DNA of 64,000 bases from the IMG/VR virus record IMGVR_UViG_3300045996_002451, positions 147,172 to 211,171 of that record; one strand, written 5' to 3'. Positions 46,658-64,000 of this stretch are shown here, piece by piece; the stretch's first letter is position 1, and each line of letters opens with the position of its first letter. Both the position numbers and the translations under genes were made by a program. Under the pieces are notes generated by a model. That model ran no database searches. It was given only the letters and a program-made list of their open reading frames with translations, and was not told where the DNA came from. Origin of the DNA: a virus (lineage: Duplodnaviria; Heunggongvirae; Uroviricota; Caudoviricetes).

Positions 46658-46662
46658 ACGCT

Positions 46663-47289
46663 ATGGAACCTAAAAGCTGTGCCGATCAGTCCAGCGCTTT
46701 AACCGAGAGTATCGCGCGTTACCAAGCTGGAGACTCGCAGGCGGCTGCCGAGCTGCTCACGTCCTGCGAAGCTTATCTGAACCGCTGGTTCCGACTCCTG
46801 ATCCAGGGAACGTTCACCAAGAACGACACGGAGATCCGCCAGTTTCTAGGGCTGCTTAGCAGTGATCTGGAGCCCGCCCTGGCTGCCAAGAACCTGGCCC
46901 GCCAGTTGCGCTCCTATTCCTCAGCCGATCTACGGCAGGAGGTACGCGCGCTCTTTCTCCAGCTTGCTCTGGAACATGGTGAGATCTACGCGCACTTTCC
47001 GCACCAGCTCAAGGGACGCATCCACGTCCTCCTCGGCGATCCCCTCAACTATCAGGACGAGCTAGGGAACAGCACACCCTTCGGCGCACTGGACGAAGCT
47101 TGGGTACAGGGACAGTGTGGAAACGGGTTCTCGCAGCTTACAGAGCAGCAGAGACGTATTGTGCGCTGCTGCTTCTGGCACGCCTACCCGATTCCCCACA
47201 CGGCGCACATCTTAAAGCTCTCGGTGGAAGAGATCCAGCAAGAACTGGCCACTATCCGGAACGCGTTAAAAGACCTAAACCGACGTTAA
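46663..47289 (+). CDS. Sigma-70-family (ECF-like) sigma factor.
   Basis: Region-2-like 'SIARYQAGDSQAAAELL ... YLNRWFRLL' and region-4 HTH 'LTEQQRRIVRCCFWHAYPIPHTAHILKLSVEEIQQELATIRNALKDL'. The ATG at 46663 follows a terminator. Confidence 0.55.
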   Translation: MEPKSCADQSSALTESIARYQAGDSQAAAELLTSCEAYLNRWFRLLIQGTFTKNDTEIRQFLGLLSSDLEPALAAKNLARQLRSYSSADLRQEVRALFLQLALEHGEIYAHFPHQLKGRIHVLLGDPLNYQDELGNSTPFGALDEAWVQGQCGNGFSQLTEQQRRIVRCCFWHAYPIPHTAHILKLSVEEIQQELATIRNALKDLNRR

Positions 47290-51717: not shown

Positions 51718-52640
51718 TAGTTTCCTCCCACGGCCACTGCGGCCTCGCCGACGACTACCGAGACGCCCTTACCACTGGGCACATCCGGGAAGCGCCCGTT
51801 CCAGGCGTCGATCGCCGCTTCGTCAATTTCCAAGCTCATCATTTCCAGCGAAGCGCTGTGGGTCTTCGTGGCGGTCATCTCCCGGGCCTTGGCCTGGGCG
51901 TTGGCGGTAATGAGCGCCGTCTTGCGCTCGATCTCCGCCTGCTCCTTGTGCGTCTTGGCGATCTCCGTACCGGTCATGATGTTGACCCGCTGGTTGATCT
52001 TGGTCTGCACGTTAGCATCCGGGTAGGGACGCAGGAAGAAGGCACGGTAGATGGTGATCCCCTTGCTCTCGAGTTTCTTCTTGAGGTTCAGGGTAAGCTT
52101 CTTGCCCGCGTCTTCCAGGGCCGGGGCGATTAACGTCTGCGCATCATACTCCGGACCGATGTCGTTCGCGGCATCCTGCAGCGCCCGGCGAATGTGCTGG
52201 CTCTGGATCGTCCGGATATCCGCTTTGCCGAAGTTGGCAAAGACGGTACCGAGCTTATCCGGATCGATGTGGTAAAGCACGCCGACATCAAAGAGAGTGG
52301 ACGCGGTGTCCGAGGTGGTGATGCGCACCGCGTCGGCCTGCTTCAGATCGCCGACCCGAGCATCCTGGGTGTAGAGGGCGAGCTGCGGCTTCGTGGGGAA
52401 CGTGTACAACTCATACATCGGCGCCACGTAGTGACGTCCGGGCTTGAAGATCTTCACGGTACCGTCCGGGTTGATCACCAGACCGTTCTTGGTGTTTGCG
52501 CCTGCACGGGCGCTGTACATCACCCCGACTTCACCGGCGTCTACCCGGGTCCCGGTGAAGAACCACACGCCCCAGACCACCACAATGACCGCCAAGGCGG
52601 CGATCAGGGCACATCCTACGTTGCTTGATTTACTGGACAT
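51717..52640 (-). CDS. SPFH / Band-7 (HflK-like) membrane protein.
   Basis: N-terminal TM 'CALIAALAVIVVVWGVWFF'. SPFH-type core with a C-terminal coiled coil 'EQAEIERKTALITANAQAKARE'. Confidence 0.6.
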   Translation of the reverse strand: MSSKSSNVGCALIAALAVIVVVWGVWFFTGTRVDAGEVGVMYSARAGANTKNGLVINPDGTVKIFKPGRHYVAPMYELYTFPTKPQLALYTQDARVGDLKQADAVRITTSDTASTLFDVGVLYHIDPDKLGTVFANFGKADIRTIQSQHIRRALQDAANDIGPEYDAQTLIAPALEDAGKKLTLNLKKKLESKGITIYRAFFLRPYPDANVQTKINQRVNIMTGTEIAKTHKEQAEIERKTALITANAQAKAREMTATKTHSASLEMMSLEIDEAAIDAWNGRFPDVPSGKGVSVVVGEAAVAVGGN

Positions 52641-52861
52641 TAGTTTCCTTTTCCGAACCGAGCTTGAAGGTCCTGCTCGATTTCTTGGTGTGCGCGCTGT
52701 TTCAACTCGGCGTCCAGCGCCGCGCGCTGACGTTTTTCCTCATCCTCTTGGGAGAGGCGCTGCCAGTCCTGCTTGATCCGTCTCCACACGCGCGCCGCGG
52801 TGAAGCCGAGCACTAAGCCCAGGATCAGCAGTAAAAACATGTTCAGCCAGATTGCTGTCAT
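52640..52861 (-). CDS. Small single-TM protein co-encoded with the SPFH pair, an NfeD-like accessory candidate.
   Basis: 'IWLNMFLLLILGLVLGF' TM segment then a charged coiled coil. ATGT/ATGA overlaps on both sides. Confidence 0.4.
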   Translation of the reverse strand: MTAIWLNMFLLLILGLVLGFTAARVWRRIKQDWQRLSQEDEEKRQRAALDAELKQRAHQEIEQDLQARFGKGN

Positions 52862-54510
52862 TCTTGGTCCTTGTGATTTCTCACCGCGTCCAGGAACGCG
52901 TTGAACAGGGGGTGCGCTGCCTCGAACTGACTCTTGTACTCGGGGTGGTACTGGACACCGACAAAGAAAGGATGCACGGATGGATCCAGCTCAACCGCAT
53001 CGTACGTATCTCGACCATTGTCCTTGGCCATCGCAGAGATGGTCAAGCCTCCCTCGATCAGTTTTGGCGCATACTCCGGGTTCAGTTGGTACCGGTGCCG
53101 GTAGCGCTCTTGCACGACTTCCCCTTCGATGTAGATCTCCTGAAGGCGCGTCCCGGACCCAAAGGCCACCGAGACGTTTCCCTTACGTAAGGCACCCCGA
53201 ATATCGGTGGAGGAGAAGCGTTGGATAACCACCGGATGCGGCGTCTTCGGATCGATCTCCGTACTGTTTGCCCCGGCCAGGGCCAGCACGTTTTGCGCGT
53301 ACTCGACCACCGCCATCTGGAACCCATAGCAGAGTCCCAGGTAAGGCAGCTTCTTTTCTCGCGCGTAACGGATCGCACGGATCTTACCGTCGGCGCCGCG
53401 GCTGCCCCACCCCTGCGGGATGATCACCCCGTCGCAGTACTTCATGGTGGTCTCGAAGCTTTCAGGATCTTGTTCGATCCCTTCCGCATCGATCCATTCT
53501 ACCAGGACCCGCACGCCGGTATGCGTCTCAGAGTGCTTCAGCGCCTCAATGACGGACACGTAGCTATCGGGAAGCTGGTAGTCGCCGGAACCGAGGTACT
53601 TGGCCACGATGCCGATGCGAACGGCGGCGCCCTCTCCGTTCAAGAGGAGATTGACCCGCTTCTTCCAGTTCGCTAACTTGGGCCGGGCAATGACCGTAAC
53701 CCCCAGGCGCTTCAGTAGTTTCTGCGCGAACTTCTGCTCTTCGAACAAGAGCGGCACCTGGTAGATGGTCTTCACGTCCGGGGCCAGGATGATCTCATCC
53801 TCACGCAGGTGCGTGTTGGCTGCGATCTTCTCCTTGCGCACCCCGTCTACCACGTACTTAGCGGCGGAACGAAGCACCAGGAAATCCGGCTGGATCCCCG
53901 CATCATAAAGCTGGCGAATGGAGAGCTGTACCGGTTTGCTCTTCATCTCGCCCAGGCTCTCGATGTACGGCAGGTACGCCACGTGAACGTGCGCCACCCG
54001 TCCGGGATGCTTCTTGGTCATCATCCGCGCAGCTTCCAGGAAGACCTGGATCTGGTACTCACCCACCGTGCCGCCAAACTCGCAGATGACGAAGTCGGCT
54101 TCATGGTGTTTCCCGCAGGCTTCCACGCGGCGGATGACCGCCTCGGGCACGTGGGGTACCATCTCCAAGGTCTTCCCGCCGAAGGCGTGGGAGCGCTCCT
54201 CATCCATGATCTCGCGAAGCACGCTGCCCATCGTGAGGTAGTTGTGGGCCGTCGTGTCTTCACCGATGAAGCGCTCGTAGTGTCCCAGGTCTTGGTCGGT
54301 CTCGAGCCCGTCCGAAGTGACAAACACTTCGCCGTGCTCCACCGGGTTCATCGTGCCTGCATCGCCATTCAAGTACGCGTCGGCTTTCATGCAAGCCACG
54401 GAATAACCGCGCGTCCGAAGTAGCGTGCCAAGGGAAGCAGCCACGATCCCCTTACCCAGACCGGAGATCACGCCTCCGGAAATGAAAATGTAACGTGTGT
54501 GGTTAGCCAT
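52858..54510 (-). CDS. pyrG: CTP synthase.
   Basis: N-terminal 'TRYIFISGGVISGLGKGI' is the canonical PyrG start. The GATase domain has 'LGLCYGFQMAVVEYA' and 'YHPEY'. 550 aa. Confidence 0.85.
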   Translation of the reverse strand: MANHTRYIFISGGVISGLGKGIVAASLGTLLRTRGYSVACMKADAYLNGDAGTMNPVEHGEVFVTSDGLETDQDLGHYERFIGEDTTAHNYLTMGSVLREIMDEERSHAFGGKTLEMVPHVPEAVIRRVEACGKHHEADFVICEFGGTVGEYQIQVFLEAARMMTKKHPGRVAHVHVAYLPYIESLGEMKSKPVQLSIRQLYDAGIQPDFLVLRSAAKYVVDGVRKEKIAANTHLREDEIILAPDVKTIYQVPLLFEEQKFAQKLLKRLGVTVIARPKLANWKKRVNLLLNGEGAAVRIGIVAKYLGSGDYQLPDSYVSVIEALKHSETHTGVRVLVEWIDAEGIEQDPESFETTMKYCDGVIIPQGWGSRGADGKIRAIRYAREKKLPYLGLCYGFQMAVVEYAQNVLALAGANSTEIDPKTPHPVVIQRFSSTDIRGALRKGNVSVAFGSGTRLQEIYIEGEVVQERYRHRYQLNPEYAPKLIEGGLTISAMAKDNGRDTYDAVELDPSVHPFFVGVQYHPEYKSQFEAAHPLFNAFLDAVRNHKDQE

Positions 54511-55298
54511 CAGTCCTCAAAGTCGTAAAGACGCACCAGTACTTCCGGTTCCGGTTCCGCTGCAGGGGGTTCTGGGTTGGGTGAGAACGCTCGAAGTTGG
54601 GCCGCTTCGGTGTAGTAGTTTCCGTTTCGGTTCTTAAGGCGTGCTTTTCTTAACGTTTCCAAACCGCTAAAGAAAATACGCAGCATGATTTGTTCCGGAG
54701 GAACGTTAGCCCAACGGCTGATCGAGGTCACCCGTTCCTGTACGGTGCGCCACGGCATATTGGGGTTTACGGCGTCCTGGAGTTCGTCGAGTACGCTATC
54801 GATCCGGTCTTCCCGCGTCTCCTCTCGGCGACTAAAGAGGGGAATAGAGGGGTCGACAGGGTTAAGGCCTTGGATGTAGTTCTCATAAAACCGCACCTGA
54901 TTAGCGCGCTCAACCTCCTGCATGCTGATACGTTTCTGCCTAACATCCGAGAAGTCGATGGCGGGTGGTGTGGGCTTGGCAGCGTTCTTCCAGTACTGAC
55001 CTAAATTTGGGAAACTGATTGCTTCTATCTTTTCCAACGAAGCTAATAAGCGATTCGCTTCGCCTCCGCCCGCGATACTCTCCGCGCGTGCAGCACCCGT
55101 CTCTCCAGACACTCCAGTTGGATCTGGAAGGGGTGTTGAAACTGGGTCTTGCGACACAACGCCTTGAGCTTCAGCTTCGCTTCCGTCAGGCTGGAAAGTG
55201 GACTTTCGACGAGCTTTTTCACGTAAACGGGGAAGCTTCCCTTTTCCACCTGACTTAGTTGGTTTGCCGCTACCAGTTCCATCTTTTGGATCGTCCAT
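54510..55298 (-). CDS. Hypothetical protein ending in 'VRLYDFED'. Start uncertain.
   Basis: C-terminal motif shared with the family. The listed start overlaps the 55043-55540 ORF. An alternative in-frame ATG lies at 54923. Confidence 0.35.
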   Translation of the reverse strand: MDDPKDGTGSGKPTKSGGKGKLPRLREKARRKSTFQPDGSEAEAQGVVSQDPVSTPLPDPTGVSGETGAARAESIAGGGEANRLLASLEKIEAISFPNLGQYWKNAAKPTPPAIDFSDVRQKRISMQEVERANQVRFYENYIQGLNPVDPSIPLFSRREETREDRIDSVLDELQDAVNPNMPWRTVQERVTSISRWANVPPEQIMLRIFFSGLETLRKARLKNRNGNYYTEAAQLRAFSPNPEPPAAEPEPEVLVRLYDFED

Positions 55299-55540
55299 AC
55301 CGTCACTACCCCTCCCAAAAACCCGGGTTCTTCTCTCTGCTGCACCACCAGGGCAGTTCGGTATTCATCCTGTTCCGCCCGCTGGAATAGTAGCTCTTCC
55401 GCCTCTGCTTGCGTGGCGCACTGTTCTACAGGTACCAGGTGATACCACAACGTGCTCCAGAGAGAGTCGTAGTCTTCTTCGCTAGGCCGCACGAAGGTAA
55501 ACAGACTGTAGACGATTTGGAAATCGGTGGTGGCAGCCAT
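55043..55540 (-). CDS. Hypothetical protein.
   Basis: An ATG at 55540 immediately follows a motif B half-site. Confidence 0.35.
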   Translation of the reverse strand: MAATTDFQIVYSLFTFVRPSEEDYDSLWSTLWYHLVPVEQCATQAEAEELLFQRAEQDEYRTALVVQQREEPGFLGGVVTVWTIQKMELVAANQLSQVEKGSFPVYVKKLVESPLSSLTEAKLKLKALCRKTQFQHPFQIQLECLERRVLHARRVSRAEAKRIAY

Positions 55541-55544
55541 AGTG

Positions 55545-55560
55545 TAACACGCGTCATACA
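55545..55560. promoter_or_regulatory. Motif B variant (GTAACACGCGTCATAC).
   Basis: Abuts the 55540 start codon on the - strand. Confidence 0.4.
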
Positions 55561-55615
55561 AGAGAGCAAGCAACGGCTGATTTAGTGTAACGCTAAATGG
55601 GACTTATGTCACTTC

Positions 55616-56014
55616 CTACGATGGGATCGCGTCTTCCGGATCGTCAAAATCATACAGGCGTACTGGTGCTTGTTCTGGCTCCGGGGGCGTTACTGCTCGC
55701 TTCTGATTCTTAGGCATCCAACCTTTGTACGGCTTAGGCTCCGGAGGACTGATTTTGATAGGAATGGCTGCCATCTGAGCGATCAACTGGTCTTGCAGTT
55801 TTGTGTAATCTTTTTTCGAAGCACGCGCGGATCCCTGCTGAACTGTGCGTTCAGCTCTAAGCTTTTCCGCGACGCTTTGATCGTAGACCAGTTCAGTGCC
55901 TTCCCAATTAAGGGGTACTAAACAGATGCGGCAGTAAGAAGGTTGCTCAGCTATTTTCAAGCGGGTGTAACAAACCGGGCAACCCGTCGTCTTAGAGATG
56001 TCTAGGCTTGGCAT
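55616..56014 (-). CDS. N-terminal zinc-ribbon protein with C-terminal 'VRLYDFDDPEDAIPS'.
   Basis: 'CPVC ... CRIC' plus the shared terminal motif. Confidence 0.45.
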   Translation of the reverse strand: MPSLDISKTTGCPVCYTRLKIAEQPSYCRICLVPLNWEGTELVYDQSVAEKLRAERTVQQGSARASKKDYTKLQDQLIAQMAAIPIKISPPEPKPYKGWMPKNQKRAVTPPEPEQAPVRLYDFDDPEDAIPS

Positions 56015-56838
56015 GGTACGCTAAAGAACTCCCGCTGAGGCAGCATCACCGCGGTCAGTAGACCGCCGTAGCAACTTCCGGTATCGATCCCAATCTTTTC
56101 CGGACGGTTCAAAGGCTTCCAGCTATCTTTCATCCCAGGTTGCCAGATACCACTCTGCACCTCCGTGGACTGCGGCGTGTGTCCGAAGATCACCGGCTTG
56201 TCCAGACGATGCTTGGTGTCGTAGATCCATTCGTCCCGGATCCAGAGCTTCTGAAAACGGCTGCACTGGCCGGGACGCTTCCCCGGCTGGAAACCGGCGT
56301 GCACGTAGTAACCGTGCTCGTCCTCATAGTCCAGCTTCAGGGAAGCAAACCAGTTCATCAAATCTTGGCCCAGCAGGGAGGTGATCCCTTCCGCGGCCAC
56401 GCCGAGAAATACCTTTTCCAGCAGTTTCAAGGTGACTGCGCGGCGTCCACCTGCGACATCGATCAGGCGCGCAAACTCCACCGGACCCAGGAAGCTTTTC
56501 ATCGCTTCGACGCCGCCGTTGCTTTCCCAGAGACCCGCATCGTAGAGTCTATGTCCACCCTGTTCCACCCGCAGGTGATCCAGCAGCATGTCCTCATGGT
56601 TGCCGATTAAGGTCACCACGGGTCCGGGCCAATAAGCCTGGCACTCTTTGGCCACTCCCCATTCCTGCAGCTCCTGCACGATGCGGATCACACCCCGACT
56701 GTCGGGGCCCCGGTCGATGTAGTCGCCTACAAAGACCAGGGTATCCCCTTCTTCAGCCAGGGGCTCGATCTGCGCCAGCAACTGCTGCAAAGGTTCGGCA
56801 AAGCCGTGTACATCACCGATCGCAAAGGTTTTACTCAT
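56002..56838 (-). CDS. Ser/Thr protein phosphatase (PPP-family metallophosphoesterase, lambda-PPase / ApaH-like).
   Basis: 'GDVHG', 'GDYIDRG' and 'GNHE' metallophosphatase motifs. Confidence 0.75.
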   Translation of the reverse strand: MSKTFAIGDVHGFAEPLQQLLAQIEPLAEEGDTLVFVGDYIDRGPDSRGVIRIVQELQEWGVAKECQAYWPGPVVTLIGNHEDMLLDHLRVEQGGHRLYDAGLWESNGGVEAMKSFLGPVEFARLIDVAGGRRAVTLKLLEKVFLGVAAEGITSLLGQDLMNWFASLKLDYEDEHGYYVHAGFQPGKRPGQCSRFQKLWIRDEWIYDTKHRLDKPVIFGHTPQSTEVQSGIWQPGMKDSWKPLNRPEKIGIDTGSCYGGLLTAVMLPQREFFSVPCQA

Positions 56839-56871
56839 GGGTTTCTCCGGCTTCGCCTTACCTACCTCTGG

Positions 56872-57804
56872 CTACGTCACGATCTCCAGGACTTCCATCG
56901 CCTGACGCAGCAAGTTTAACCGAGCGTCTCGGGTCATACTGCGCCACTGCTGCTTACTCATCCCGGTACTGCCGCCACTCACCAGCTCCAGTACGGCATC
57001 CAGGTTGCCGACAGGCACCACCGCGGTGGTGCGCGTAGCATCGGGCTGGATGTGGTGACCCCGCTTCACCGCCTCGGAAGGGCGCACGCGGACCGAGGTG
57101 ATTTTCGTGCCACTGCGGCGAGGAGGCGCAGCGGTGAGCGGCGTGCGCGTATTGGTACGCATCACCCCGTTCTTGATGTTGCGCGCCAACATCTGTACGT
57201 AGCTGTACACCGCGTTAGCGACTTTGCCGATCTCCACCTGTTCGGTGTAGGTGGGCATGCGCTTGCGGGGATCGATCCCCCGGGCCAGCAACTCCTTGAC
57301 GATCGTATGGGCCTTGGTGCCCTCTTGAAAGTTCTGGAGCAGGTCCTGGGACGGATCAGCGGGAGGAGCCGTTTCGATCACCTCAGTCGGAGAGGTCGTC
57401 ATGATTTGTCGAGGTCCTACTTGGTAGACCGGAGGCGCTTTGGCGTCCTGCGCGCTGACGTACTCGAAGAACGCCTCCAGCACGCGCAGCTCGTTCAAAG
57501 CCCTTCGGACCAGAATACATGGGATATCCAGCTTATCAGCCGCCTTACGGGTATTGACGGAGTTGGTGTGGCTGATGCAGTCGAGCATGATCATGGCAAG
57601 ATCTGCCCCGGACAGCTCCTGCTCCAGCTTTCGCAGGGGCAAGCGCCTTTTCGTGTCCACCCACACCAACTCCGCCGCTAACAGTTCGGAGAGTGCTTCA
57701 AGCCGTTTTTCCTCTCGCCTGCCACCAATCAGGAAGATCCGTTTGCCCTGGGTAAGCGACAGGACACGTTCCATAAATGGTTCGGTGGAAGAGGGGGTTT
57801 GCAT
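56872..57804 (-). CDS. Hypothetical protein with a possible N-terminal Rossmann / SLOG-like domain and a low-complexity C-terminus.
   Basis: The spacing in 'RIFLIGGRREEK ... LAMIMLDCISHTNS ... DIPCILV' resembles DUF2325/SLOG. An ATG at 57804 has GGAG upstream. Confidence 0.35.
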   Translation of the reverse strand: MQTPSSTEPFMERVLSLTQGKRIFLIGGRREEKRLEALSELLAAELVWVDTKRRLPLRKLEQELSGADLAMIMLDCISHTNSVNTRKAADKLDIPCILVRRALNELRVLEAFFEYVSAQDAKAPPVYQVGPRQIMTTSPTEVIETAPPADPSQDLLQNFQEGTKAHTIVKELLARGIDPRKRMPTYTEQVEIGKVANAVYSYVQMLARNIKNGVMRTNTRTPLTAAPPRRSGTKITSVRVRPSEAVKRGHHIQPDATRTTAVVPVGNLDAVLELVSGGSTGMSKQQWRSMTRDARLNLLRQAMEVLEIVT

Positions 57805-57808
57805 GCGG

Positions 57809-59383
57809 TTACTCCGGCTCGGCACTGCCTTCGAGGATGCGCGCCTGGGTCTTAGGATACAGGGCGTACCACTTCTTAAGCAAGCGTCGATAGTCGTTGG
57901 CGTATTTGTACAGCGCCCCTACGCCCGTGCGCAGCTCGCACTCGTAGAGGAACTTGTCTGCTGTGGTGCCGTGCTCGTAGCTACTCTCCGCGCCCAACAC
58001 CAACCAGTAGACATAGGTAGAGTACCCTTGCGTCAGCAGGTTCAACGCCGTACGCGTCATCGTCCGCCCGATCTCCGCAAGCGCTTCTAGCTGTTTGCGT
58101 TCCTCCTGGGCCCAGCTCGGCAACTCATCCTCGGCCCAGTAGAAACCGACCGGGATCAGCGGCGCGAACTTGTACCCCGTACGGTGCCGGTTCATGTCCC
58201 GCAGACAAGCGAAGTCTACGGCTCCGATCGAAAAGCGTACAAAGGTACGCCGCAGCCAGGCCCCTACCCAGGCATACCGGTTCTCGTGGAACTCCAGGTC
58301 CTGGTAGAACTCCCCGTCGAAGAAGTTGCGTTCTTCTTGGTGCCCGTAGAACGTGTGCTCTGTTTCAGGACACCAGACGGCCAGGTGAACCGGCGAAGTC
58401 GCACTGGAACGGGTGATCGGAAGCGTCTCATTCAGGAAGGTCTGCCCGATCCCGGTATAGGAAGTCTGCCGCGCGGCCTTGAACTCCTGCTCGAAGCCTT
58501 GGGTCCAGTACGCCTTGGCCACGGCGTGCTTGACCAGTCGCGGGGTAACCAGCTCCAGTTCTTCCCGCAGCAGCTTGCCTAGCGCCTGGCCTTCGGACAG
58601 CGGTTGAGACAGCAGCTTCTGGATCAACTCGGTCCAGCCGCGGGCGTTCATGACCAGCATCACGTTGGTCTGTACGGCAGCCGGGATGAAGCAGCGTGCC
58701 CGGTCGAAGGCGTAGTTGCGCTTCAGCCGTTCCAGCTTGAGCCGGGCTTTTTCGTCGGTCTTGGCTTCTTCGATGAGTGAACTGGGGATCTTGGCGACGG
58801 TGGGATCCTTTTCGAAGATTCCGGACCAGAGCGCGTACGCCTGATTGTAGGCGTCAAACGCGAGCGCGGTCTGCTGCGTCCATTCAGGGGCGTCCACTAC
58901 GCCTAGCGCCTCTGCCGAAGGTAAGCCTTCCGCGGAGAACTTGCAGTAGCGCGTGCTCGTCTCCTGTCCGGAGGCCGTCGGCACCTGACTCCAGATCCAG
59001 TAGACCAGGTAGACCGAGACGTTGTCGAGGAACATCGCGACTGGCGCCATGTCCGCAATCGAGGCATGGCCGTAGTCCACCATCTTGAAGATGGAGTCGA
59101 CCCCTTTGTCCGGGTTGCCGGGGCGATAATTGTTCGCTACGGTGTGGAAGCGTTCGTAATCGTCATCCCATTCCGCACGGTGGCTTTCTGCCACGAGCGT
59201 AAGGAACTTCTCGAGGGTTTCCTGCTTGTTACCAAGATCAATCTTTTCGAGGATCGCCTCCAAGCCCTCTCCATTGCGACTGTAGCGCGCGCCGGTGGCA
59301 GCTAGTTCTTCGGCGGTCAGGGCAACCTTCCCCGCGGCCAGCGCGGCTTCAGTGGGCTTTAGGGCGACGTATGTAACTTTCAT
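57809..59383 (-). CDS. Tandem-domain flavin-dependent thymidylate synthase (ThyX)-like protein.
   Basis: 'ARCFIPAAVQTNVMLVMNARGWTELI' matches the ThyX AR..LP...T...N.R motif. The first half has 'ETSTRY' without RHR. The second half has 'NRHRTGYKF'. 524 aa is about twice ThyX length. Confidence 0.45.
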   Translation of the reverse strand: MKVTYVALKPTEAALAAGKVALTAEELAATGARYSRNGEGLEAILEKIDLGNKQETLEKFLTLVAESHRAEWDDDYERFHTVANNYRPGNPDKGVDSIFKMVDYGHASIADMAPVAMFLDNVSVYLVYWIWSQVPTASGQETSTRYCKFSAEGLPSAEALGVVDAPEWTQQTALAFDAYNQAYALWSGIFEKDPTVAKIPSSLIEEAKTDEKARLKLERLKRNYAFDRARCFIPAAVQTNVMLVMNARGWTELIQKLLSQPLSEGQALGKLLREELELVTPRLVKHAVAKAYWTQGFEQEFKAARQTSYTGIGQTFLNETLPITRSSATSPVHLAVWCPETEHTFYGHQEERNFFDGEFYQDLEFHENRYAWVGAWLRRTFVRFSIGAVDFACLRDMNRHRTGYKFAPLIPVGFYWAEDELPSWAQEERKQLEALAEIGRTMTRTALNLLTQGYSTYVYWLVLGAESSYEHGTTADKFLYECELRTGVGALYKYANDYRRLLKKWYALYPKTQARILEGSAEPE

Positions 59384-59393
59384 CGCGTTCTTT

Positions 59394-59804
59394 CTAGTTG
59401 AGGACCGCAGCTTTTCGGGGGAGGGGGCGAGACGGTACGTCGTCCATGTCTTGCATGTCCGGACAGTCGGGTCCGTGTACCGGACAGATCCCTTCCTTCA
59501 AACCCTGCATCGCCAGCAGGACCTGGGTGACCTTACCTAACGTATCCATCGCGACATCGATACCGACGGCAAGCACGGCATCTATCTGCTTGGGCATATC
59601 GGTATGCCCTTCCACCAGTTCGACCATGGCAGATACGAGCTTCCAGCGTACGGCGTCGTCGCCTTCCAGCACCAGGTTGTCCAGACTGAGGCTCACGGGA
59701 GGTTCGGGGATCCCCTGTGCTTTACGACTCAGCGCTTCCTGGGAGATCCGCTTGGTCGTTTCAACCAATGCTTGCATGTTTTCCAGGGTTAAATCTCTGC
59801 GCAT
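59394..59804 (-). CDS. Hypothetical protein.
   Basis: 136-aa ORF downstream of a hairpin and motif A at 59825. Confidence 0.4.
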   Translation of the reverse strand: MRRDLTLENMQALVETTKRISQEALSRKAQGIPEPPVSLSLDNLVLEGDDAVRWKLVSAMVELVEGHTDMPKQIDAVLAVGIDVAMDTLGKVTQVLLAMQGLKEGICPVHGPDCPDMQDMDDVPSRPLPRKAAVLN

Positions 59805-59824
59805 CCCAGTGTTCCTAACTACGG

Positions 59825-59838
59825 GTTACCCGTGTAAC
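59825..59838. promoter_or_regulatory. Motif A (GTTACCCGTGTAAC).
   Basis: 20 nt upstream (on the - strand) of the 59804 start codon. Confidence 0.5.
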
Positions 59839-59846
59839 AAAGATGA

Positions 59847-59881
59847 GTGCCTGGAGCCGATCGGACTGTGCTCCAGGCACA
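59847..59881 (-). terminator. Hairpin (11-bp stem) immediately 3' of the 59888 gene. A weak terminator or an RNA processing site.
   Basis: GTGCCTGGAGC-12 nt loop-GCTCCAGGCAC with a weak T-tract. Confidence 0.35.
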
Positions 59882-59887
59882 GTGGCA

Positions 59888-60235
59888 TCAACTCCCGGTA
59901 ATGGCGTGAAGGAATCCGAACCTCTTGAGGTGTTCCGGCTCTTCAAATTGAATGGCCGCTTCTGCGAACCCTTCCACGATTGTCGGTGTGAAGCCTTGTT
60001 CAGACGTTAAGGTGACTACCTTTACTTTGAACGAGACGGTGACGTGATGTAGCTCAAGTTCTTCGTGAGGTCGTACCTCCTCAACCTGAAGAGAACCAAC
60101 CTCATAGGTGTATTGACACAGATGATCGAACCCTTCCGGGGTACCCCCGTTGACCTGCGCTGGAACCATTGCGTCCAACTGGCGGCGGAGATCTTCGAGC
60201 ATGGTGTCAGTGACACTATAAAACTGAGCGGGCAC
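59888..60235 (-). CDS. Hypothetical protein.
   Basis: 115-aa ORF. Confidence 0.4.
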   Translation of the reverse strand: MPAQFYSVTDTMLEDLRRQLDAMVPAQVNGGTPEGFDHLCQYTYEVGSLQVEEVRPHEELELHHVTVSFKVKVVTLTSEQGFTPTIVEGFAEAAIQFEEPEHLKRFGFLHAITGS

Positions 60236-60301
60236 ACTGCCTCCATTATGCAGTTTTTAGCGGCTAGATTGCCGCGGCAGCAGGATAACTGAACAGTTAC
60301 C

Positions 60302-60535
60302 CTACTTCGGTTCCTCGCAAGGCACCTCGACTACCAGGGTCTCGTTCCAGTCAACTGCTGGTTGGACTACCCGGAAGGACCGCCGATAGCCACGGTTCGT
60401 GTCCCAGCCTGAGACAACCTCACCGATACGTGGTTTGGACGCACCTTGAAATTGCAGGCGGACCTCACGAGGACATTCTTGGACCCGTAACACGTGGGTC
60501 CGAGCTTTTCTACGCATCCTAACTCTTCTGGGCAA
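60302..60535 (-). CDS. Hypothetical small basic protein.
   Basis: 77 aa, starting 'MPRRVRMRRKAR'. Confidence 0.3.
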   Translation of the reverse strand: MPRRVRMRRKARTHVLRVQECPREVRLQFQGASKPRIGEVVSGWDTNRGYRRSFRVVQPAVDWNETLVVEVPCEEPK

Positions 60536-60540
60536 GCAGG

Positions 60541-60643
60541 TAGTGAGACAGGGTGCCCTTAAAAGTGCAGCACGCTGAAGTCGCCCTCCATTGTAACTGT
60601 TCGCCCTGTCTCACTACCTGCTCTTTAAGCGGACCCTGACCCG
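60541..60643. other. Structured non-coding region: a ~20-bp inverted repeat enclosing a ~45-nt loop, plus smaller hairpins.
   Basis: GCAGGTAGTGAGACAGGG(T)G at 60546-60565 pairs with CGCCCTGTCTCACTACCTGC at ~60612-60631. The 175-nt gap between - strand genes has no convincing ORF. Confidence 0.4.
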
Positions 60644-60709
60644 CCCACGGCCAGGTCCTACCGGTCAGTCTTCCCAAACCCACCGGTAGCTGTTTCACCC
60701 GGCACCTGG

Positions 60710-61369
60710 TTAGCCGCCCATACCCGGTGCGAGCTGGTCCGAAGTCTTGACTACGGGACACTTAAGGAGTTTTCCGTTGTAGTTAGGGAAGACTTGCGTG
60801 AAGACGCGCGTCTGCGTCTCGAAGTCCTCGATGGCCTCCAAGAAGTTCACAGCTTCAGCGCCCATTGATTGCCGGACGTGGTTGCGCATCGCAATCCGCA
60901 TCTGCTCCTGAGCCAGCTCGTAGGTTGCACAAACCTGTAAGCTGGCAGTTTCTCCAACAGGTTGCAGAATGACCAAGAACACCTCGTCTCGCGGTTCTTG
61001 GGCGTCCGTCAGTACTGCTTCCTCAGGCTCGGGTGCCGGGTTAGGATCGGGAAGCAACGAAACCAGTACGTCATCCGGAAGGGTGTTGCGATGATTGATC
61101 TGGGATGCGAGCAGGTCCACACGGGCGTAGTCCGGGAGGCTGGCGATCGGAATGACGCCACCGGGGTCTTCGACGGAGAAACCATCCTTGACCCAGTAGA
61201 AGATGGCTTCAGTCGCCTGGAGCCTGATCGCGTTCTGTTCTTCCGGCTCCGCGTTGCTCTGCAGGTAGTGGCGTTTGAACGCACCGGTGGGTCGTTCTTC
61301 GAGCACACAGGTTGGTGCCGAGCGCCGGTCAAACTCCACCAACACGATCGTTTCGGGGTTTACACTCAT
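60710..61369 (-). CDS. Hypothetical protein.
   Basis: 219-aa ORF. Confidence 0.4.
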   Translation of the reverse strand: MSVNPETIVLVEFDRRSAPTCVLEERPTGAFKRHYLQSNAEPEEQNAIRLQATEAIFYWVKDGFSVEDPGGVIPIASLPDYARVDLLASQINHRNTLPDDVLVSLLPDPNPAPEPEEAVLTDAQEPRDEVFLVILQPVGETASLQVCATYELAQEQMRIAMRNHVRQSMGAEAVNFLEAIEDFETQTRVFTQVFPNYNGKLLKCPVVKTSDQLAPGMGG

Positions 61370-61380
61370 GGGATATCCTC

Positions 61381-61785
61381 TCAGGTTTTCTTACGCGGAA
61401 CGATGGTGACACGTCCCTCTTTATCGGAAGCATCAAACGCTTCCAAGGCCTCTAACTGCAACCGCTCGTAAACGGAGATCTTCTCTAGGCCTAGATTCGA
61501 CGTCTTCCTATTGCCTACATAACGGCGCATCGCGTTTACCAGCTTATCCAGTACAGCGGTAGGAAGCTGCGTCATCTGGTTCTTTTTACGGTTCGCCAAC
61601 TCAACTTCCGCCTGTTGGATCAACGTGGTGATCTCCCCGTCTTCCAGATCCTCCAGATTAAACGCCAGGGAGTTTTCGTCTGCAAACGGATCATAACCGT
61701 AGATACGGGTGTTCGAGTTGGGAGGGGGAGTGTCTTGCGACGCAGGATCATCTTCTCCCAAAAAATCGTACATACGCTCAGACAA
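61381..61785 (-). CDS. Hypothetical protein with an N-terminal 'RMYDFLGEDDP' motif.
   Basis: Terminal motif family. Also an internal 'RIYGYDPFADE'. Confidence 0.4.
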   Translation of the reverse strand: MSERMYDFLGEDDPASQDTPPPNSNTRIYGYDPFADENSLAFNLEDLEDGEITTLIQQAEVELANRKKNQMTQLPTAVLDKLVNAMRRYVGNRKTSNLGLEKISVYERLQLEALEAFDASDKEGRVTIVPRKKT

Positions 61786-61803
61786 CCGTTTCCTCCTTTC
61801 TAC

Positions 61804-62220
61804 TTACGTCGATTCCTCGAAGTCGTAGAGACGAGGACGCTTTTCCGTCATGGTGTAGTACCGGGTCTCGGCGGTGTGCGTGGTTGCAGGCGCCGCGGTC
61901 ATTTCTGGTAACGGTTGCCCAGCCTTTAAGTAGACGACCTCTCGGTCAATCAGGTCTCCGAACTCCGACTCCCAACCCAGCACTTCGGGAGCTACCGTAA
62001 CAAAGTCGCGCTTCATGCGGTCCATGACAAAGGTGTTGTGCATCCGCAGGGCCTCGTCCACGGTGCCGAAGCAGCTCTGCATCGAGGTAGAGAGGTGTTT
62101 AAGCGTACCCCAATGCGTGCGAAAGTAGTAACGCTTTCCTTGCTTGAGGACCCTGGAGACAAAGGCTTCCTTTTTAGACCCCTTGGTGCGGAGCAGGTAG
62201 ACAGAGGCAATGACACTCAT
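61804..62220 (-). CDS. Hypothetical protein ending in 'RLYDFEEST'.
   Basis: C-terminal motif family. Confidence 0.4.
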   Translation of the reverse strand: MSVIASVYLLRTKGSKKEAFVSRVLKQGKRYYFRTHWGTLKHLSTSMQSCFGTVDEALRMHNTFVMDRMKRDFVTVAPEVLGWESEFGDLIDREVVYLKAGQPLPEMTAAPATTHTAETRYYTMTEKRPRLYDFEEST

Positions 62221-62221
62221 T

Positions 62222-62521
62222 TTAACCTACCTGTTCCAGATCGGCGAGTAGCTGCGCGGCAGTCTTGATCCCGTAGATAGAGATCGGTGACCAGATACCT
62301 TGGACCTCGTACGGAAAGAACCCTTGCCGGAGTACGTACTGTTCGGGATCGGCGTAGCGCGTCAGTGCTGCGTGCAGTCGATTGAAGAGCGGACGCTCGA
62401 TTACAATCGGTGTCTTGCGGCGCTGTGCCACGAACTCCAGCAGTTCTTCATCCGTGTACTGGTTCAGGGGATGCTGGTGCGAATTGGGAAGCGCATCAAA
62501 ATCATAAGCTCGTGCAGACAT
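62222..62521 (-). CDS. Hypothetical protein with N-terminal 'MSARAYDFD'.
   Basis: Its ATG overlaps the stop of the upstream gene (TGATG). No Cys. Confidence 0.4.
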   Translation of the reverse strand: MSARAYDFDALPNSHQHPLNQYTDEELLEFVAQRRKTPIVIERPLFNRLHAALTRYADPEQYVLRQGFFPYEVQGIWSPISIYGIKTAAQLLADLEQVG

Positions 62522-62796
62522 CACTCTTCTCCGAAACTATAGACCCGGTTGATGTTGCTGGAAACGGTGGGTCCGCTCACGAGCAACGCGTCCGATCTAG
62601 CGAGGATGGCATGCCGGGGGCAGTAATCCTTTTTGTTGGGCTTGTCGTAGACCCAGCCCTGCTTTTCCAGCGCCTGTCGGGCCACACCCGGCGTGAACTG
62701 CTCATGGTTAAAGAGCGGAGTCGGCATCTGGCAGGCGTCGCAGCAGACGTTGAAGTGTTTAGCTGCTGGACCTTTTCCTCCGCGCCTAGTAATCAT
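62521..62796 (-). CDS. Small zinc-ribbon protein, paralogue E, ending in 'NRVYSFGEE'.
   Basis: 'CCDAC ... GWVYD ... DYCPRH'. Alignable with paralogues A-D. Confidence 0.45.
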   Translation of the reverse strand: MITRRGGKGPAAKHFNVCCDACQMPTPLFNHEQFTPGVARQALEKQGWVYDKPNKKDYCPRHAILARSDALLVSGPTVSSNINRVYSFGEE

Positions 62797-62798
62797 CT

Positions 62799-63134
62799 TC
62801 ACTCCTCAAAATCGTAAACCCGGTTGGGTGACTCAGTCTCTCCGAGCTGATCCGTTTTGTAGCGCAAGTCCACCACGATACCTGCGTCTTCGAGCGCTGA
62901 CTTGGCAATGGCCAGATCGATACGCAGTTGCGTGACCAGACAGCGTGGACAGCTAGGTCCACGGCGACTAGACCCAGGAAGCGGGACATCCCAGCCGCGG
63001 ATCGTCAACTCTTCGCGTAACTCGGCATCGTCCAGCTCGAACGCGGTCTTCCAATTGATCTTTACGTTACAAAACTCACAGCCCACGTCATAAAGCCAAC
63101 TGGAGGACATCTGGGTCTTTCTGAGGTACCGCAT
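62799..63134 (-). CDS. Small zinc-ribbon protein, paralogue D, ending in 'NRVYDFEE'.
   Basis: 'WLYDVGCEFCN ... LTIRGW ... SCPRC'. Confidence 0.45.
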   Translation of the reverse strand: MRYLRKTQMSSSWLYDVGCEFCNVKINWKTAFELDDAELREELTIRGWDVPLPGSSRRGPSCPRCLVTQLRIDLAIAKSALEDAGIVVDLRYKTDQLGETESPNRVYDFEE

Positions 63135-63139: not shown

Positions 63140-63421
63140 TTAGTCCTCGAAGTCGTAGATGCGCGTGGGCGAGGTCTTAGCGATGAAGCCCTGGGTGATC
63201 CGATCCTGGCAAACGGGACAGACGTCCATGATCGTATTGGTCTTCTCGTGGATCTCGGTCGTCCAGCCTTCGCTTTTGGCGAGCGCTCGAACCTTGGACT
63301 CCAGACCTGCGCCGCGGGAAAAAGCGGCTCGAAACGCGGTATGGCATCCCGGCACGTTACAGCCAAGGTAATACACCACGAGTTTACTTTCCGCTTCTTT
63401 ACCCCAAGCTGTATCGATCAT
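63140..63421 (-). CDS. Small zinc-ribbon protein, paralogue C, ending in 'TRIYDFED'.
   Basis: 'YYLGCNVPGCH ... LAKSEGW ... DVCPVCQ'. Confidence 0.45.
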   Translation of the reverse strand: MIDTAWGKEAESKLVVYYLGCNVPGCHTAFRAAFSRGAGLESKVRALAKSEGWTTEIHEKTNTIMDVCPVCQDRITQGFIAKTSPTRIYDFED

Positions 63422-63696
63422 TAGGGATCCTCGAAGCTGTAGACGCGGTTGCTCTCTTTTTCAGCTTTTGGTTGGGCTACATCTGTAAGCGCGCACTGTT
63501 CGCAATAGTCCATGCTGGTGACCAAATCAGGTCTAGCGTAGCAGACCCAACCGTGCTTAGCAGAAAGCTCCCGTAAACCTACTGGGTTGTTGTAACCGTC
63601 AAAGCAACCCAGACGCAGTGCCCGCACACACCGATATCCAGAGCAGTAAAGGTAGTACCACGACCAACTGCCCCTGTCCTTAAAGATGTGGAACAT
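63421..63696 (-). CDS. Small zinc-ribbon protein, paralogue B, ending in 'NRVYSFEDP'.
   Basis: 'YYLYCSGYRC ... LSAKHGW ... DYCEQC'. TAATG overlap with paralogue C. Confidence 0.45.
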   Translation of the reverse strand: MFHIFKDRGSWSWYYLYCSGYRCVRALRLGCFDGYNNPVGLRELSAKHGWVCYARPDLVTSMDYCEQCALTDVAQPKAEKESNRVYSFEDP

Positions 63697-63698
63697 GA

Positions 63699-64000
63699 CT
63701 ACTCCTCAAAGCTGTAGATCCGGTTTTGAAGGGTTGGTTCTGGGGATGGCGGTGCTTGTTCGACCTGACATGCCGGACAGACGTCTTTTACATTCATATT
63801 TACAGGCGTAGCAACACTACTACGCCACGACACGCTAAAGTTATCCCAATTGTAGCGTCTCTTTACTTCTGCTCTTAGTTTCGCTCGATCGCTAATAGAG
63901 AGCACGAGATCTCTTTGTACGAGAGCTACCGCATGGTGACACCCGTGAATGTCACAATGAACGAAGTACAGGTACGTGTTACGGTTACTGTCACCTAAGT
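63699..64000 (-). CDS. Small zinc-ribbon protein, paralogue A, ending in 'NRIYSFEE'. Its 5' end is cut by the window edge.
   Basis: The in-frame upstream translation to the window edge gives 'YLYFVHCDIHGCHH ... VKRRYNW ... DVCPACQ', which is the same architecture. The listed GTG start is therefore probably internal. Confidence 0.4.
   Translation of the reverse strand, partial: LGDSNRNTYLYFVHCDIHGCHHAVALVQRDLVLSISDRAKLRAEVKRRYNWDNFSVSWRSSVATPVNMNVKDVCPACQVEQAPPSPEPTLQNRIYSFEE

What the first reader, a model, noticed from the sequence alone, without database searches (positions are those of the whole stretch)
54510..62524. Terminal R-h-Y-D-F-[DE]-[DE] motif shared by unrelated early proteins and doubling as the next gene's Shine-Dalgarno
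Beyond the zinc-ribbon array, several otherwise dissimilar proteins carry the motif at a terminus. C-terminal examples are 54510-55298 (VRLYDFED), 55616-56014 (VRLYDFDDPED) and 61804-62220 (RLYDFEEST). N-terminal examples are 61381-61785 (MSERMYDFLGEDDP) and 62222-62521 (MSARAYDFD). The FE[ED] codons (TTC GAG GAn) form the GAGGA Shine-Dalgarno 5-9 nt before the next ATG, so the motif is under dual protein and translation-coupling constraint. The extra conserved R-h-Y-D residues imply a short linear docking or degron motif that recruits these proteins to a common host or phage partner.
Basis: partly seen in the sequence, partly recalled or inferred. Interest (0 to 1): 0.8.

Follow-up and report, generated by a model that had tools for sequence, protein, structure and literature searches.

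The report
Shared peptide tag on phage proteins
A dozen unrelated proteins of an uncultured large phage, and of its few known relatives, end in the same short floppy peptide (…Pro-x-Pro-Val-Arg-h-Tyr-Asp-Phe-Glu-Glu), which looks like a portable tag that lets them all bind one still unknown partner.

Summary
The motif is real. R-h-Y-[DS]-F plus acidic residues occurs 10 times in the window, all on the minus strand between 54.5 and 63.7 kb. All copies are in frame, eight at C-termini and two at N-termini. Shuffles give 0.19 (nucleotide) or 0.013 (protein) copies. Wobble positions vary freely, so selection acts on the peptide, not the DNA.

A profile search found the same tail in related metagenomic phage contigs. 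In total there are 27 copies in at least 3 genomes, on about 12 unrelated protein families, including a Cdc48-like AAA ATPase and a DUF3150 protein. R and Y are invariant, and F is present in 24 of 27. More distant zinc-ribbon homologues lack the tail. The tail follows a Pro/Glu-rich linker and has low confidence in an AlphaFold model.

The Shine-Dalgarno overlap holds for 6 of 8 C-terminal copies here but only about a quarter of copies in relatives, so it is opportunistic.

One listed gene is mis-started: the real CDS is 54510-55037, not 54510-55298.

The most likely function is a portable docking peptide for a common partner. The partner is unidentified. No match to any known motif class or to the literature was found.

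The parts
63702..63722 (-). Motif RIYSFEE at the C-terminus of zinc-ribbon paralogue 63699-63905 (68 aa)
   Evidence: The GAGGAG in the motif lies 5 nt before ATG 63696.
63427..63447 (-). Motif RVYSFED(P) at the C-terminus of zinc-ribbon paralogue 63421-63696 (91 aa)
   Evidence: GAGGA lies 6 nt before ATG 63421. The protein is identical to public protein P0003.
63143..63163 (-). Motif RIYDFED at the C-terminus of zinc-ribbon paralogue 63140-63421 (93 aa)
   Evidence: In the AlphaFold model the domain (residues 1-80) has pLDDT about 70-83 and the tail (81-93) about 47-51 with no secondary structure.
62802..62822 (-). Motif RVYDFEE at the C-terminus of zinc-ribbon paralogue 62799-63134 (111 aa)
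   Evidence: GAGGAG lies 5 nt before ATG 62796.
62527..62547 (-). Motif RVYSFGE(E) at the C-terminus of zinc-ribbon paralogue 62521-62796 (91 aa, ATG 62796)
   Evidence: GGAG lies 7 nt before ATG 62521.
62492..62512 (-). N-terminal copy (MSA)RAYDFDA of gene 62222-62521 (99 aa). It lies 35 nt downstream of the preceding C-terminal copy.
   Evidence: The public gene call of 99 aa is P0031. The profile score is weak, 7.3 bits against 16-23 bits for C-terminal copies.
61813..61833 (-). Motif RLYDFEE(ST) at the C-terminus of gene 61804-62220 (138 aa, no recognisable domain)
   Evidence: The next gene has its own AGGAGG. The public call is P0030.
61756..61776 (-). N-terminal copy (MSE)RMYDFLG(EDD) of gene 61381-61785 (134 aa, TTG start after AGGAGG). 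A second, degenerate copy NTRIYGYDPFADE follows at aa 26-38.
55640..55660 (-). Motif RLYDFDD(PEDAIPS) at the C-terminus of gene 55616-56014 (132 aa, N-terminal CxxC…CxxC)
   Evidence: The codons GAC GAT give no Shine-Dalgarno role. Only the tail aligns to L137 18807-19232.
54513..54533 (-).
   Evidence: GAGGA lies 3 nt before the CTP synthase ATG at 54510.
55043..55573 (-). Separate gene without the motif.
   Evidence: Codon log-odds profile
56002..59383 (-). Genes of the same leftward block that lack the motif and are conserved in the relative: ThyX-like 57809-59383, DUF2325 protein 56872-57825, PPP-family phosphatase 56002-56838.
   Evidence: Pfam; synteny with L137

Best explanation
The element is a clade-specific short linear motif. 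Its extended consensus is [P/E-rich linker]-P-x-P-[V/N]-R-h-Y-[D>S,N]-F-[E/D]-[E/D]. It sits on a flexible tail at the extreme C-terminus, rarely the N-terminus, of many unrelated proteins. These proteins are encoded in one co-directional block of DNA-metabolism and small-protein genes in a group of uncultured large phages.

It most likely works as a portable docking peptide. Each carrier uses the same exposed peptide to bind one common receptor site on a hub protein, which could be phage-encoded or host. Arg, Tyr and Phe would make the specific contacts and the acidic residues would add electrostatic steering. Unrelated activities would thus be brought to the same place, or would compete for it.

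Shown: the motif exists; it is selected as a peptide; it is conserved across genomes; it is independent of protein family; it lies on a proline-rich linker.

Inferred: that it binds a partner, that there is a single partner, and the timing of expression.

The overlap with the next gene's ribosome-binding site is a secondary, opportunistic use of the Glu/Asp codons.
For: - Enrichment: 10 copies observed against 0.185 or 0.013 expected. All lie on one strand, in frame and at termini.
- Peptide-level selection: all synonymous codons are used at R, Y, D and F. DNA repeat families covering the motif are only 68-90% identical over 20-25 nt.
- Conservation in other genomes: a profile built from the zinc-ribbon paralogues found P0006, P0007, P0008 and P0011 with the same tail.
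- Copies in relatives: the 45-kb contig Ga0642623_05414, seen through the overlapping fetches L137 and L141, carries 10 tails. L139 carries 4 and L140 carries 3. Carriers include a Cdc48/VCP-like AAA ATPase and a DUF3150 protein.
- Invariance over 27 copies: R 27/27, Y 27/27, F 24/27, D 19/27.
- Family independence: 16 BLAST families with tails removed, about 12 after merging the zinc-ribbon groups.
- Orthologue bodies are 32-46% identical while the invariant motif residues R and Y, and F or L, are kept in all six pairs. For 55616-56014 against L137 18807-19232, only the tail aligns.
- The tail is an add-on: more distant zinc-ribbon homologues P0010 and P0012-P0016 end right after the second Cys pair.
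- Linker composition: Pro is 16.9% in the 15 residues before the motif against 6.0% in the protein bodies. Hydrophobic residues are 23% against 34%.
- The tail has low pLDDT and no secondary structure in the zinc-ribbon model.
- The motif is retained where it cannot act as a Shine-Dalgarno sequence.
Against: - No partner was identified, and nothing here tests binding.
- The phage and its host are uncultured. The clade is known from only a few contigs, and the two short Logan contigs may come from one genome.
- Only one structural model is usable. The second had mean pLDDT 44.7.
- Replication, nucleotide-metabolism and structural proteins encoded on the plus strand of the window do not carry the tag. 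This makes a general replisome hub less obvious.
- No clamp-like or other peptide-binding hub protein was detected in the window.
- The two N-terminal copies match the profile weakly, have no counterpart in the relatives, and could be relics.
Confidence: 0.68

Rival explanations
1. Shared degron. The tail marks these proteins for timed removal by a host or phage AAA+ protease, so that a whole class of proteins is cleared together.
For: - Bacterial degrons are typically terminal and can work at either end (established knowledge). This fits 25 C-terminal and 2 N-terminal copies.
- The carriers are co-transcribed small proteins.
- A classical AAA ATPase is encoded in the same block of the relative.
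Against: - Known C-terminal degrons for ClpXP and FtsH need non-polar last residues, and acidic substitutions abolish recognition (established knowledge, for example ssrA-DD).
- Here the ends are acidic, and 2-12 variable residues follow F.
- The AAA ATPase itself carries the tail, which is odd for the enzyme that would read it.
Confidence: 0.12
2. Address tag for a structure. The peptide routes the carriers into or onto a phage-built assembly such as a capsid interior, a compartment or a membrane cage. This would resemble encapsulin cargo-loading peptides or microcompartment encapsulation peptides.
For: - The architecture matches such tags: a short terminal peptide, a Pro-rich flexible linker, unrelated cargo, and occasional N-terminal placement.
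- The window's leftward operon ends with two SPFH/Band-7 paralogues. Their E. coli relatives HflK/HflC form a cage (established knowledge).
Against: - No shell, encapsulin or chimallin-type gene was recognised in the window.
- The SPFH pair is absent from the corresponding position in the relative.
- Virion structural proteins in the window lack the tag.
Confidence: 0.1
3. Nucleotide-level element. The repeat is conserved as DNA or RNA, either as a Shine-Dalgarno and translational-coupling signal or as a recombination boundary. The peptide would then be a by-product.
For: - Six of 8 C-terminal copies in the window place GAGGA or GGAG 3-9 nt before the next start.
- Both N-terminal copies also lie at gene junctions.
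Against: - Wobble positions are scrambled while the amino acids are invariant.
- The R-h-Y-D part has no Shine-Dalgarno content.
- In relatives only about a quarter of copies are positioned as a Shine-Dalgarno sequence. Many use GAA/GAT/GAC, and downstream genes often have their own Shine-Dalgarno sequence.
- All 27 copies are in the coding frame.
Confidence: 0.03
4. Cis-acting tail. The aromatic and acidic peptide mimics nucleic acid and folds back on the carrier's own nucleic-acid-binding surface as an autoinhibitor, like the acidic tails of T7 gp2.5 or SSB. Alternatively the tails bind each other and drive co-assembly.
For: - Many carriers have Cys-pair zinc ribbons that could bind nucleic acid.
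- The composition, aromatic plus acidic, resembles single-stranded-DNA-mimicking tails (established knowledge).
Against: - One invariant sequence on about 12 unrelated folds, including an AAA ATPase, is hard to explain by contacts within each protein.
- The model shows no docking of the tail onto its own domain.
Confidence: 0.07

Closest known systems
Sliding-clamp interaction tails of phage T4/RB69 (C-termini of gp43 polymerase, gp33 and gp55 binding gp45). From my own knowledge, not tested here.
   Same: Unrelated phage proteins share a short hydrophobic and acidic peptide at the extreme C-terminus and use it to bind one ring-shaped hub. The relative of this phage also has T4-type rIIA and rIIB genes.
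   Different: The sequence differs: R-h-Y-D-F-E-E against an LDFL/LFDMF-type core. There are many more carriers, at least 10 per genome, and they are mostly small zinc-ribbon proteins. No clamp or polymerase gene was seen in the window, so the partner cannot be claimed.
Bacterial beta-clamp-binding motif (QL[SD]LF) on Pol II/III/IV/V, MutS and Hda
   Same: A five- to six-residue motif at the N- or C-terminus of unrelated proteins, on flexible segments, with competition for one pocket.
   Different: There is no Gln. Position 4 is Asp, not hydrophobic. Arg and Tyr are invariant.
SSB C-terminal tip (…DFDDDIPF-COOH)
   Same: An acidic and aromatic disordered tail that mediates many protein contacts. 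One copy here, YDFDDPEDAIPS, looks superficially similar.
   Different: The logic is reversed. In SSB one protein carries the tail and many partners read it. Here many proteins carry it. The essential terminal Pro-Phe carboxylate is absent and the residues after F vary.
Encapsulin cargo-loading peptides and microcompartment encapsulation peptides
   Same: A terminal tag plus a Pro-rich linker on unrelated cargo, usually C-terminal and sometimes N-terminal.
   Different: The consensus differs: there is no GSL-type motif and no amphipathic helix. No shell gene was recognised nearby.
Docking motifs of eukaryotic PPP phosphatases (PP1 RVxF)
   Same: An [R]-[V/I/L]-x-F-like peptide in disordered regions of many unrelated proteins. 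A PPP-family phosphatase gene (56002-56838) is conserved inside the same block in both phages.
   Different: The spacing is R-h-x-x-F, not R-V-x-F. Tyr is invariant. There is no evidence that bacterial or phage PPP enzymes have such a groove.
Short-linear-motif mimicry by eukaryotic viruses (LxCxE, PxDLS and others)
   Same: Viral proteins carry short portable peptides that plug into a hub.
   Different: Here no host protein with the motif was found. A DNA-pattern scan of 185,579 species genomes gave only chance-level, internal hits.

Membership tests
Short linear motif (generic definition) | 3-10 residues with a few invariant positions | tested here: met
   R, Y and F(/L) are fixed and D is preferred, over 27 copies.
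Short linear motif (generic definition) | Lies in a disordered or flexible region outside the folded domain | tested here: met
   The linker has Pro 16.9% against 6.0% in the bodies, and fewer hydrophobic residues. Tail pLDDT is about 47-51 with no secondary structure. Only one usable model exists.
Short linear motif (generic definition) | Present on unrelated proteins and conserved in orthologues more than the flanks | tested here: met
   There are 16 BLAST families without tails. Bodies are 32-46% identical while R, Y and F (or L) are kept. One pair aligns only in the tail.
Short linear motif (generic definition) | Binds a defined partner domain | not testable with these tools
   No complex prediction or experiment is available. 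No candidate was recognised.
Shine-Dalgarno or translational-coupling element as the sole cause | Conservation at nucleotide level, including wobble positions | tested here: not met
   Codon tables show free synonymous variation.
Shine-Dalgarno or translational-coupling element as the sole cause | Purine-rich core 4-12 nt upstream of the next start | tested here: inconclusive
   Met for 6 of 8 C-terminal copies in the window but only about a quarter of the 17 copies in relatives.
Bacterial beta-clamp-binding motif | Consensus Q-L-[S/D]-L-F, with a hydrophobic residue at position 4 | tested here: not met
   R is at position 1 and D/S/N at position 4.
T4-type gp45 clamp-binding tail | Extreme C-terminal peptide shared by unrelated phage proteins | tested here: met
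   Twenty-five of 27 copies are C-terminal, with 2-12 residues after F.
T4-type gp45 clamp-binding tail | LDFL/LFDMF-type core, and presence on the DNA polymerase together with a gp45-type clamp gene | tested here: inconclusive
   The core differs. No clamp or polymerase was recognised in the 64-kb window or in about 39 kb of the relative. The rest of both genomes was not seen.
SSB C-terminal tip | Terminal …D-D-D-[I/L]-P-F with a free carboxylate, on an OB-fold SSB | tested here: not met
   The ends are …EE, …ED, …EEST, …AIPS and others. The carriers are not SSBs.
ssrA/ClpX- or FtsH-type C-terminal degron | Non-polar last residues (…LAA-COOH type) | tested here: not met
   The ends are acidic or variable. 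Degradation itself was not testable.
Encapsulin or microcompartment targeting peptide | Known consensus (GSL-type or amphipathic helix) and an adjacent shell gene | tested here: not met
   The consensus differs. No shell family appears in the Pfam or PHROG scans of the window.
PP1 RVxF docking motif | [RK]-x(0,1)-[VI]-{P}-[FW] | tested here: not met
   Two residues (Y-D) lie between h and F in all 27 copies. A PPP phosphatase gene is nearby, but binding is untestable here.

The most novel reading that the evidence does not exclude
The tail is the address label of a phage-encoded hub system that has not been described. At least a dozen proteins would be routed by one peptide either to a phage-built assembly or to the conserved PPP-family phosphatase encoded in the same block. 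In the second case the phosphatase would gain a set of interchangeable targeting subunits, the way RVxF proteins serve eukaryotic PP1. That would be the first SLiM-organised holoenzyme or targeting system in a bacteriophage.
Probability: 0.15. Interest if true: 0.85.

Novelty: new variant of a known kind. Interest (0 to 1): 0.62.

Why it matters
Short linear motifs are a main way for eukaryotic viruses to rewire cells. In phages only a few cases are known, such as clamp-binding tails.

Here one peptide is shared by about a dozen unrelated families. It is conserved across diverged genomes and clearly selected as a peptide. That points to a single hub through which this phage clade coordinates a large part of one gene block.

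Because the tag is only 7-12 residues long, it gives a direct experimental handle (a synthetic peptide) on proteins that otherwise have no annotation. It could also serve as a portable recruitment tag once the receptor is known.

The case also shows that terminal-motif enrichment is a usable way to group phage proteins of unknown function.

Tried and rejected
- Nucleotide-level explanation: rejected on codon variation and on junction anatomy in relatives.
- Chance: rejected by shuffles.
- A single paralogous family: rejected by all-against-all BLAST with tails removed.
- Known phages: no megablast or tblastn match for the region, a virion protein or a carrier. The nearest cultured rIIA relatives are about 30% identical, and Phaeobacter phage MD18 has no such tails.
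- ThyX-anchored relatives in IMG/VR and in metagenomes are at most 45% identical. Many are bacterial, and none has the motif nearby.
- DNA-pattern scans for the motif: IMG/VR gave only single, internal hits. Species genomes gave 30 hits, about the chance number. All were internal except one ORF in a thaumarchaeal contig that does not look coding. So there is no evidence for a host protein being mimicked.
- The window's own contig could not be fetched, so nothing beyond 64000 was seen.
- A motif-only profile cannot reach significance in the large protein database: members score only 7-23 bits, and the allowed E-value limit is 10.
- A concatenated 2571-aa query returned nothing, probably because of the candidate cap. 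That search was wasted.
- Fold search of the zinc-ribbon model found nothing significant. A PDB profile search gave only a weak eS26 zinc-ribbon resemblance, E = 0.036.
- My first impression that 61804-62220 is WGR-like was not borne out by Pfam even at E <= 10. Its single-sequence model is unusable.
- Literature searches for the peptide strings and for phage terminal motifs found nothing relevant.

Full report
**What is in the window.**
The window looks like part of a large tailed phage.
- Plus-strand genes from 1 to about 49 kb include a baseplate wedge protein, several virion structural proteins, glycosyltransferases, a DnaB-like helicase, dCTP and dCMP deaminases, RecU, a Cas4-like exonuclease, a GroES-like protein and a sigma-factor-like protein.
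- A tightly packed minus-strand block runs from beyond 64000 down to a strong terminator at 50835-50810.
- There is no nucleotide or protein-level match in 50,697 phage records.
- The source is a 211,171-bp JGI contig whose proteins are singletons in a 5.8-billion-protein database.

**The observation.**
- A six-frame scan for Y[DS]F gives 14 hits in 64 kb. Ten lie on the minus strand between 54.5 and 63.7 kb. Each has R-h in front and acidic residues behind, and each is in frame with an ORF.
- Eight are C-terminal, with 2-9 residues after Phe. Two are N-terminal, with Arg at residue 4.
- R-[ILVMA]-Y-[DS]-F is expected 0.185 times in nucleotide shuffles (maximum 2 of 200) and 0.013 times when the 21 proteins of the block are shuffled.
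- Five carriers are paralogous zinc-ribbon proteins (Cx2C … GW … CPxC). The other five share only the motif region.
ORF 54510-55298 overlaps ORF 55043-55573 by 256 nt. A codon log-odds profile shows that 55043-55573 is the coding frame down to about 55060. The real motif-bearing CDS is 54510-55037 (TTG start, 175 aa), which is also the public gene call (P0002).
- The public calls also agree with 61804-62220 (138 aa) and with an ATG start at 62521 for the N-terminal example.

**Peptide or DNA?**
The codons answer this directly.
- Within the window, Arg is CGG/CGC/CGA/CGT, Tyr is TAC/TAT, Asp is GAC/GAT, Ser is AGC/AGT and Phe is TTC/TTT.
- The DNA repeat families that cover the motif are only 68-90% identical over 20-25 nt.
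- Selection therefore acts on the amino acids.

**The Shine-Dalgarno overlap.**
- It is real for six of the eight C-terminal copies. GAGGA(G) or GGAG inside the Phe-Glu-Glu/Asp codons lies 3-9 nt before the next ATG.
- The copy at 61813-61833 is followed by a gene with its own AGGAGG.
- The copy at 55640-55660 is encoded GAC GAT and has no nearby start.
- Both of these keep the acidic residues.

**Relatives.**
- Anchoring on the ThyX-like gene found only distant relatives, at most 45% identical. Many are on bacterial contigs, and none has the motif.
- A profile of the five zinc-ribbon paralogues, searched against 1.84 billion representative proteins, found four non-self proteins with the same tail: …KRLYNFDEDEPQRLDERD, …VRLYDFDD, …NRLYDFEGE and …LRHYDFEAEAFVPS. 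It also found more distant zinc-ribbon proteins that stop right after the second Cys pair and have no tail.
- The contigs encoding the tailed proteins could be fetched. A 45-kb JGI contig is syntenic with the window: zinc ribbons, then homologues of 60710-61369 and 59888-60235, then ThyX-like (50% identity), then PPP phosphatase (50%), plus a DUF2325 protein. It is covered by the overlapping fetches L142, L141 and L137, and the same phage appears in three sibling samples.
- That contig carries ten C-terminal tails: RWYDFEA, RGYDFTEE, RVYDFEDEDV, RIYDFEDVL, RLYDFSDLVETDG, RLYDFDD, RHYDFEAEAFVPS, RLYDFEEDAV, RAYSLEEEAEK and RAYDLES.
- The carriers include a 501-aa classical AAA ATPase resembling Cdc48/VCP and a 369-aa DUF3150 protein.
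- rIIA, rIIB, DNA ligase, UvrD-like helicase and a RecA-like protein in the same block lack the tail. So do the genes in the next 10 kb, which include Macro, NUDIX and a methyltransferase.
- Two short Logan contigs add seven more tails.

**The motif over all copies.**
- Over 27 copies: R 27/27, Y 27/27, F 24/27 (L in 3), D 19/27 (S 4, N 3, E 1). Residues at +5 and +6 are acidic in 23/27 and 21/27.
- Upstream, Pro is at -2 in 12/27, and V or N is at -1 in 15/27.
- Codon usage stays mixed: CGG 16, CGC 7, CGT 3, CGA 1; TAC 21, TAT 6; GAC 13, GAT 6; TTC 14, TTT 10.
- With tails removed the carriers fall into 16 BLAST families, about 12 after merging the zinc-ribbon groups.
- Orthologue bodies are 32-46% identical while R, Y and F/L are kept in all six pairs. 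For 55616-56014 against its counterpart in the relative, only the tail aligns.
- In the relatives only about a quarter of the 17 copies are placed to serve as a ribosome-binding site. Many use GAA/GAT/GAC, and downstream genes often have their own Shine-Dalgarno sequence. The dual use is therefore opportunistic, not the reason the motif is conserved.

**Physical context.**
- The 15 residues before the motif are rich in Pro (16.9% against 6.0% in the bodies) and Glu, and poor in hydrophobic residues (23% against 34%).
- In an AlphaFold model of 63140-63421, built on the paralogue alignment, the domain (residues 1-80) has pLDDT about 70-83. The tail (81-93) drops to about 47-51 with no secondary structure and does not pack on the domain.
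- A single-sequence model of 61804-62220 was too poor to use.

**The N-terminal copies.**
- Both lie directly after a C-terminal copy, 35 and 57 nt downstream at the same junction.
- They match the tail profile weakly, at 7.3-7.4 bits against 16-23 bits.
- They have no counterpart among the 17 copies in relatives.
- They are translated: 61381-61785 has a strong AGGAGG before its TTG start, and the public call for 62222-62521 is 99 aa.
- They may be functional. Alternatively they may be remnants of a lost upstream gene's tail fused to the next gene. This is inference.

**Mechanism.**
The best-supported reading is a portable docking peptide on a flexible tail, read by one common receptor. The evidence fits the standard signature of a short linear motif:
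- it is short;
- a few positions are invariant;
- it lies in a disordered context;
- it recurs on unrelated proteins;
- it is conserved against diverging flanks;
- it is absent from more distant homologues of one carrier family.

What cannot be decided here is the receptor. No clamp, TPR, SH3, PDZ or shell-type protein was recognised in the window. Proteins conserved with the tagged set in both phages are the ThyX-like enzyme, a PPP-family phosphatase, a DUF2325 protein and two families of unknown function. These are the first phage-encoded candidates. A host hub is equally possible.

Rival readings:
- A degron is less likely because the ends are acidic and variable, and because an AAA ATPase itself carries the tag.
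- An address tag for an assembly is possible but has no shell candidate. The SPFH pair at 50860-52640 is not syntenic in the relative.

That the block is 'early' is only inferred from its co-directional neighbours in the relative. Those neighbours (rIIA, rIIB, ligase, helicase, RecA-like) are early or middle genes in T4 (established knowledge).

**Comparison with known systems.**
- The closest analogue in function is the T4/RB69 clamp-binding C-terminal tail shared by gp43, gp33 and gp55, together with the bacterial beta-clamp motif. Neither consensus fits.
- The SSB tip, ssrA-type degrons, encapsulin and microcompartment tags and the PP1 RVxF motif each fail at least one defining feature (see the membership table).
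- No paper in the searchable library contains the peptide strings in a relevant context or describes such a tag in phages.
- A DNA-pattern scan of one genome per bacterial and archaeal species for P-V-R-L-Y-D-F-[DE] gave only about the chance number of hits, and none was a credible terminal copy. There is thus no sign that a host motif is being mimicked.

**Verdict.**
It extends to other genomes and to large proteins with recognisable domains.
- The interpretation as a recognition peptide is well supported. The 'dual constraint' is a side effect.
- The partner and the consequence of binding remain open.
- I rate the finding a new variant of a known kind, a hub-docking terminal motif. It is of clear interest, limited by the uncultured source.

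Noticed in passing
window 50860-51717 and 51717-52640 (-): Two adjacent SPFH/Band-7 (HflK/HflC-like) paralogues close the leftward operon, just before a strong terminator at 50835-50810. They are absent from the corresponding position in the relative L137.
   Followed up: partly
window 55043-55573 (-) vs 54510-55298 (-): Two long ORFs overlap by 256 nt. Codon statistics show that the upstream one is the real gene.
   Followed up: yes
window 57809-59383 (-): The ThyX-like protein is 524 aa, about twice the usual length; Pfam Thy1 covers only residues 92-281. It has many homologues of 34-45% identity, some on large bacterial-looking contigs of up to 1.1 Mb. Among cultured phages it matches mainly Microcystis phages, at 21-27% identity.
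   Followed up: partly
window 34911-35531, 40407-41303, 52858-54510, 37369-37881 (+/-): dCTP deaminase, dCMP deaminase, CTP synthase and an AAA_33-type kinase occur together with the ThyX-like gene. This is a heavy pyrimidine-metabolism load that might indicate modified DNA.
   Followed up: no
window 61381-61785 (-), aa 26-38; window 59888-60235 (-): Possible degenerate extra copies of the motif. NTRIYGYDPFADE lies behind the N-terminal copy of 61381-61785. In 59888-60235 there is MPAQFYSVTD at the N-terminus and KRFGFLHAITGS at the C-terminus.
   Followed up: no
window 56002-56838 (-); L137 14928-15704: A PPP-family (GDxHG / GDxxDRG / GNHE) phosphatase is conserved at 50% identity inside the tagged-gene block of both phages.
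   Followed up: partly
window 46645-47289 (+), 45062-45604 (+): A protein with a sigma-70 region 4 domain and an unusually long (180 aa) Cpn10/GroES-like protein.
   Followed up: no
L142 / L141 (contig Ga0642623_05414): The relative carries Macro, NUDIX, an N6/N4 methyltransferase, rIIA, rIIB, DNA ligase, DUF1257 plus DUF2997, a UvrD-like helicase and a RecA-like gene in one co-directional block. The same phage appears in three sibling JGI samples (3300072490, 3300072491 and 3300072492).
   Followed up: partly
proteins P0010, P0012-P0016: Tail-less, 63-85-aa relatives of the zinc-ribbon family (CDxPxC … GW … DxCPxH/C) exist elsewhere. Their genomic context was not examined.
   Followed up: no
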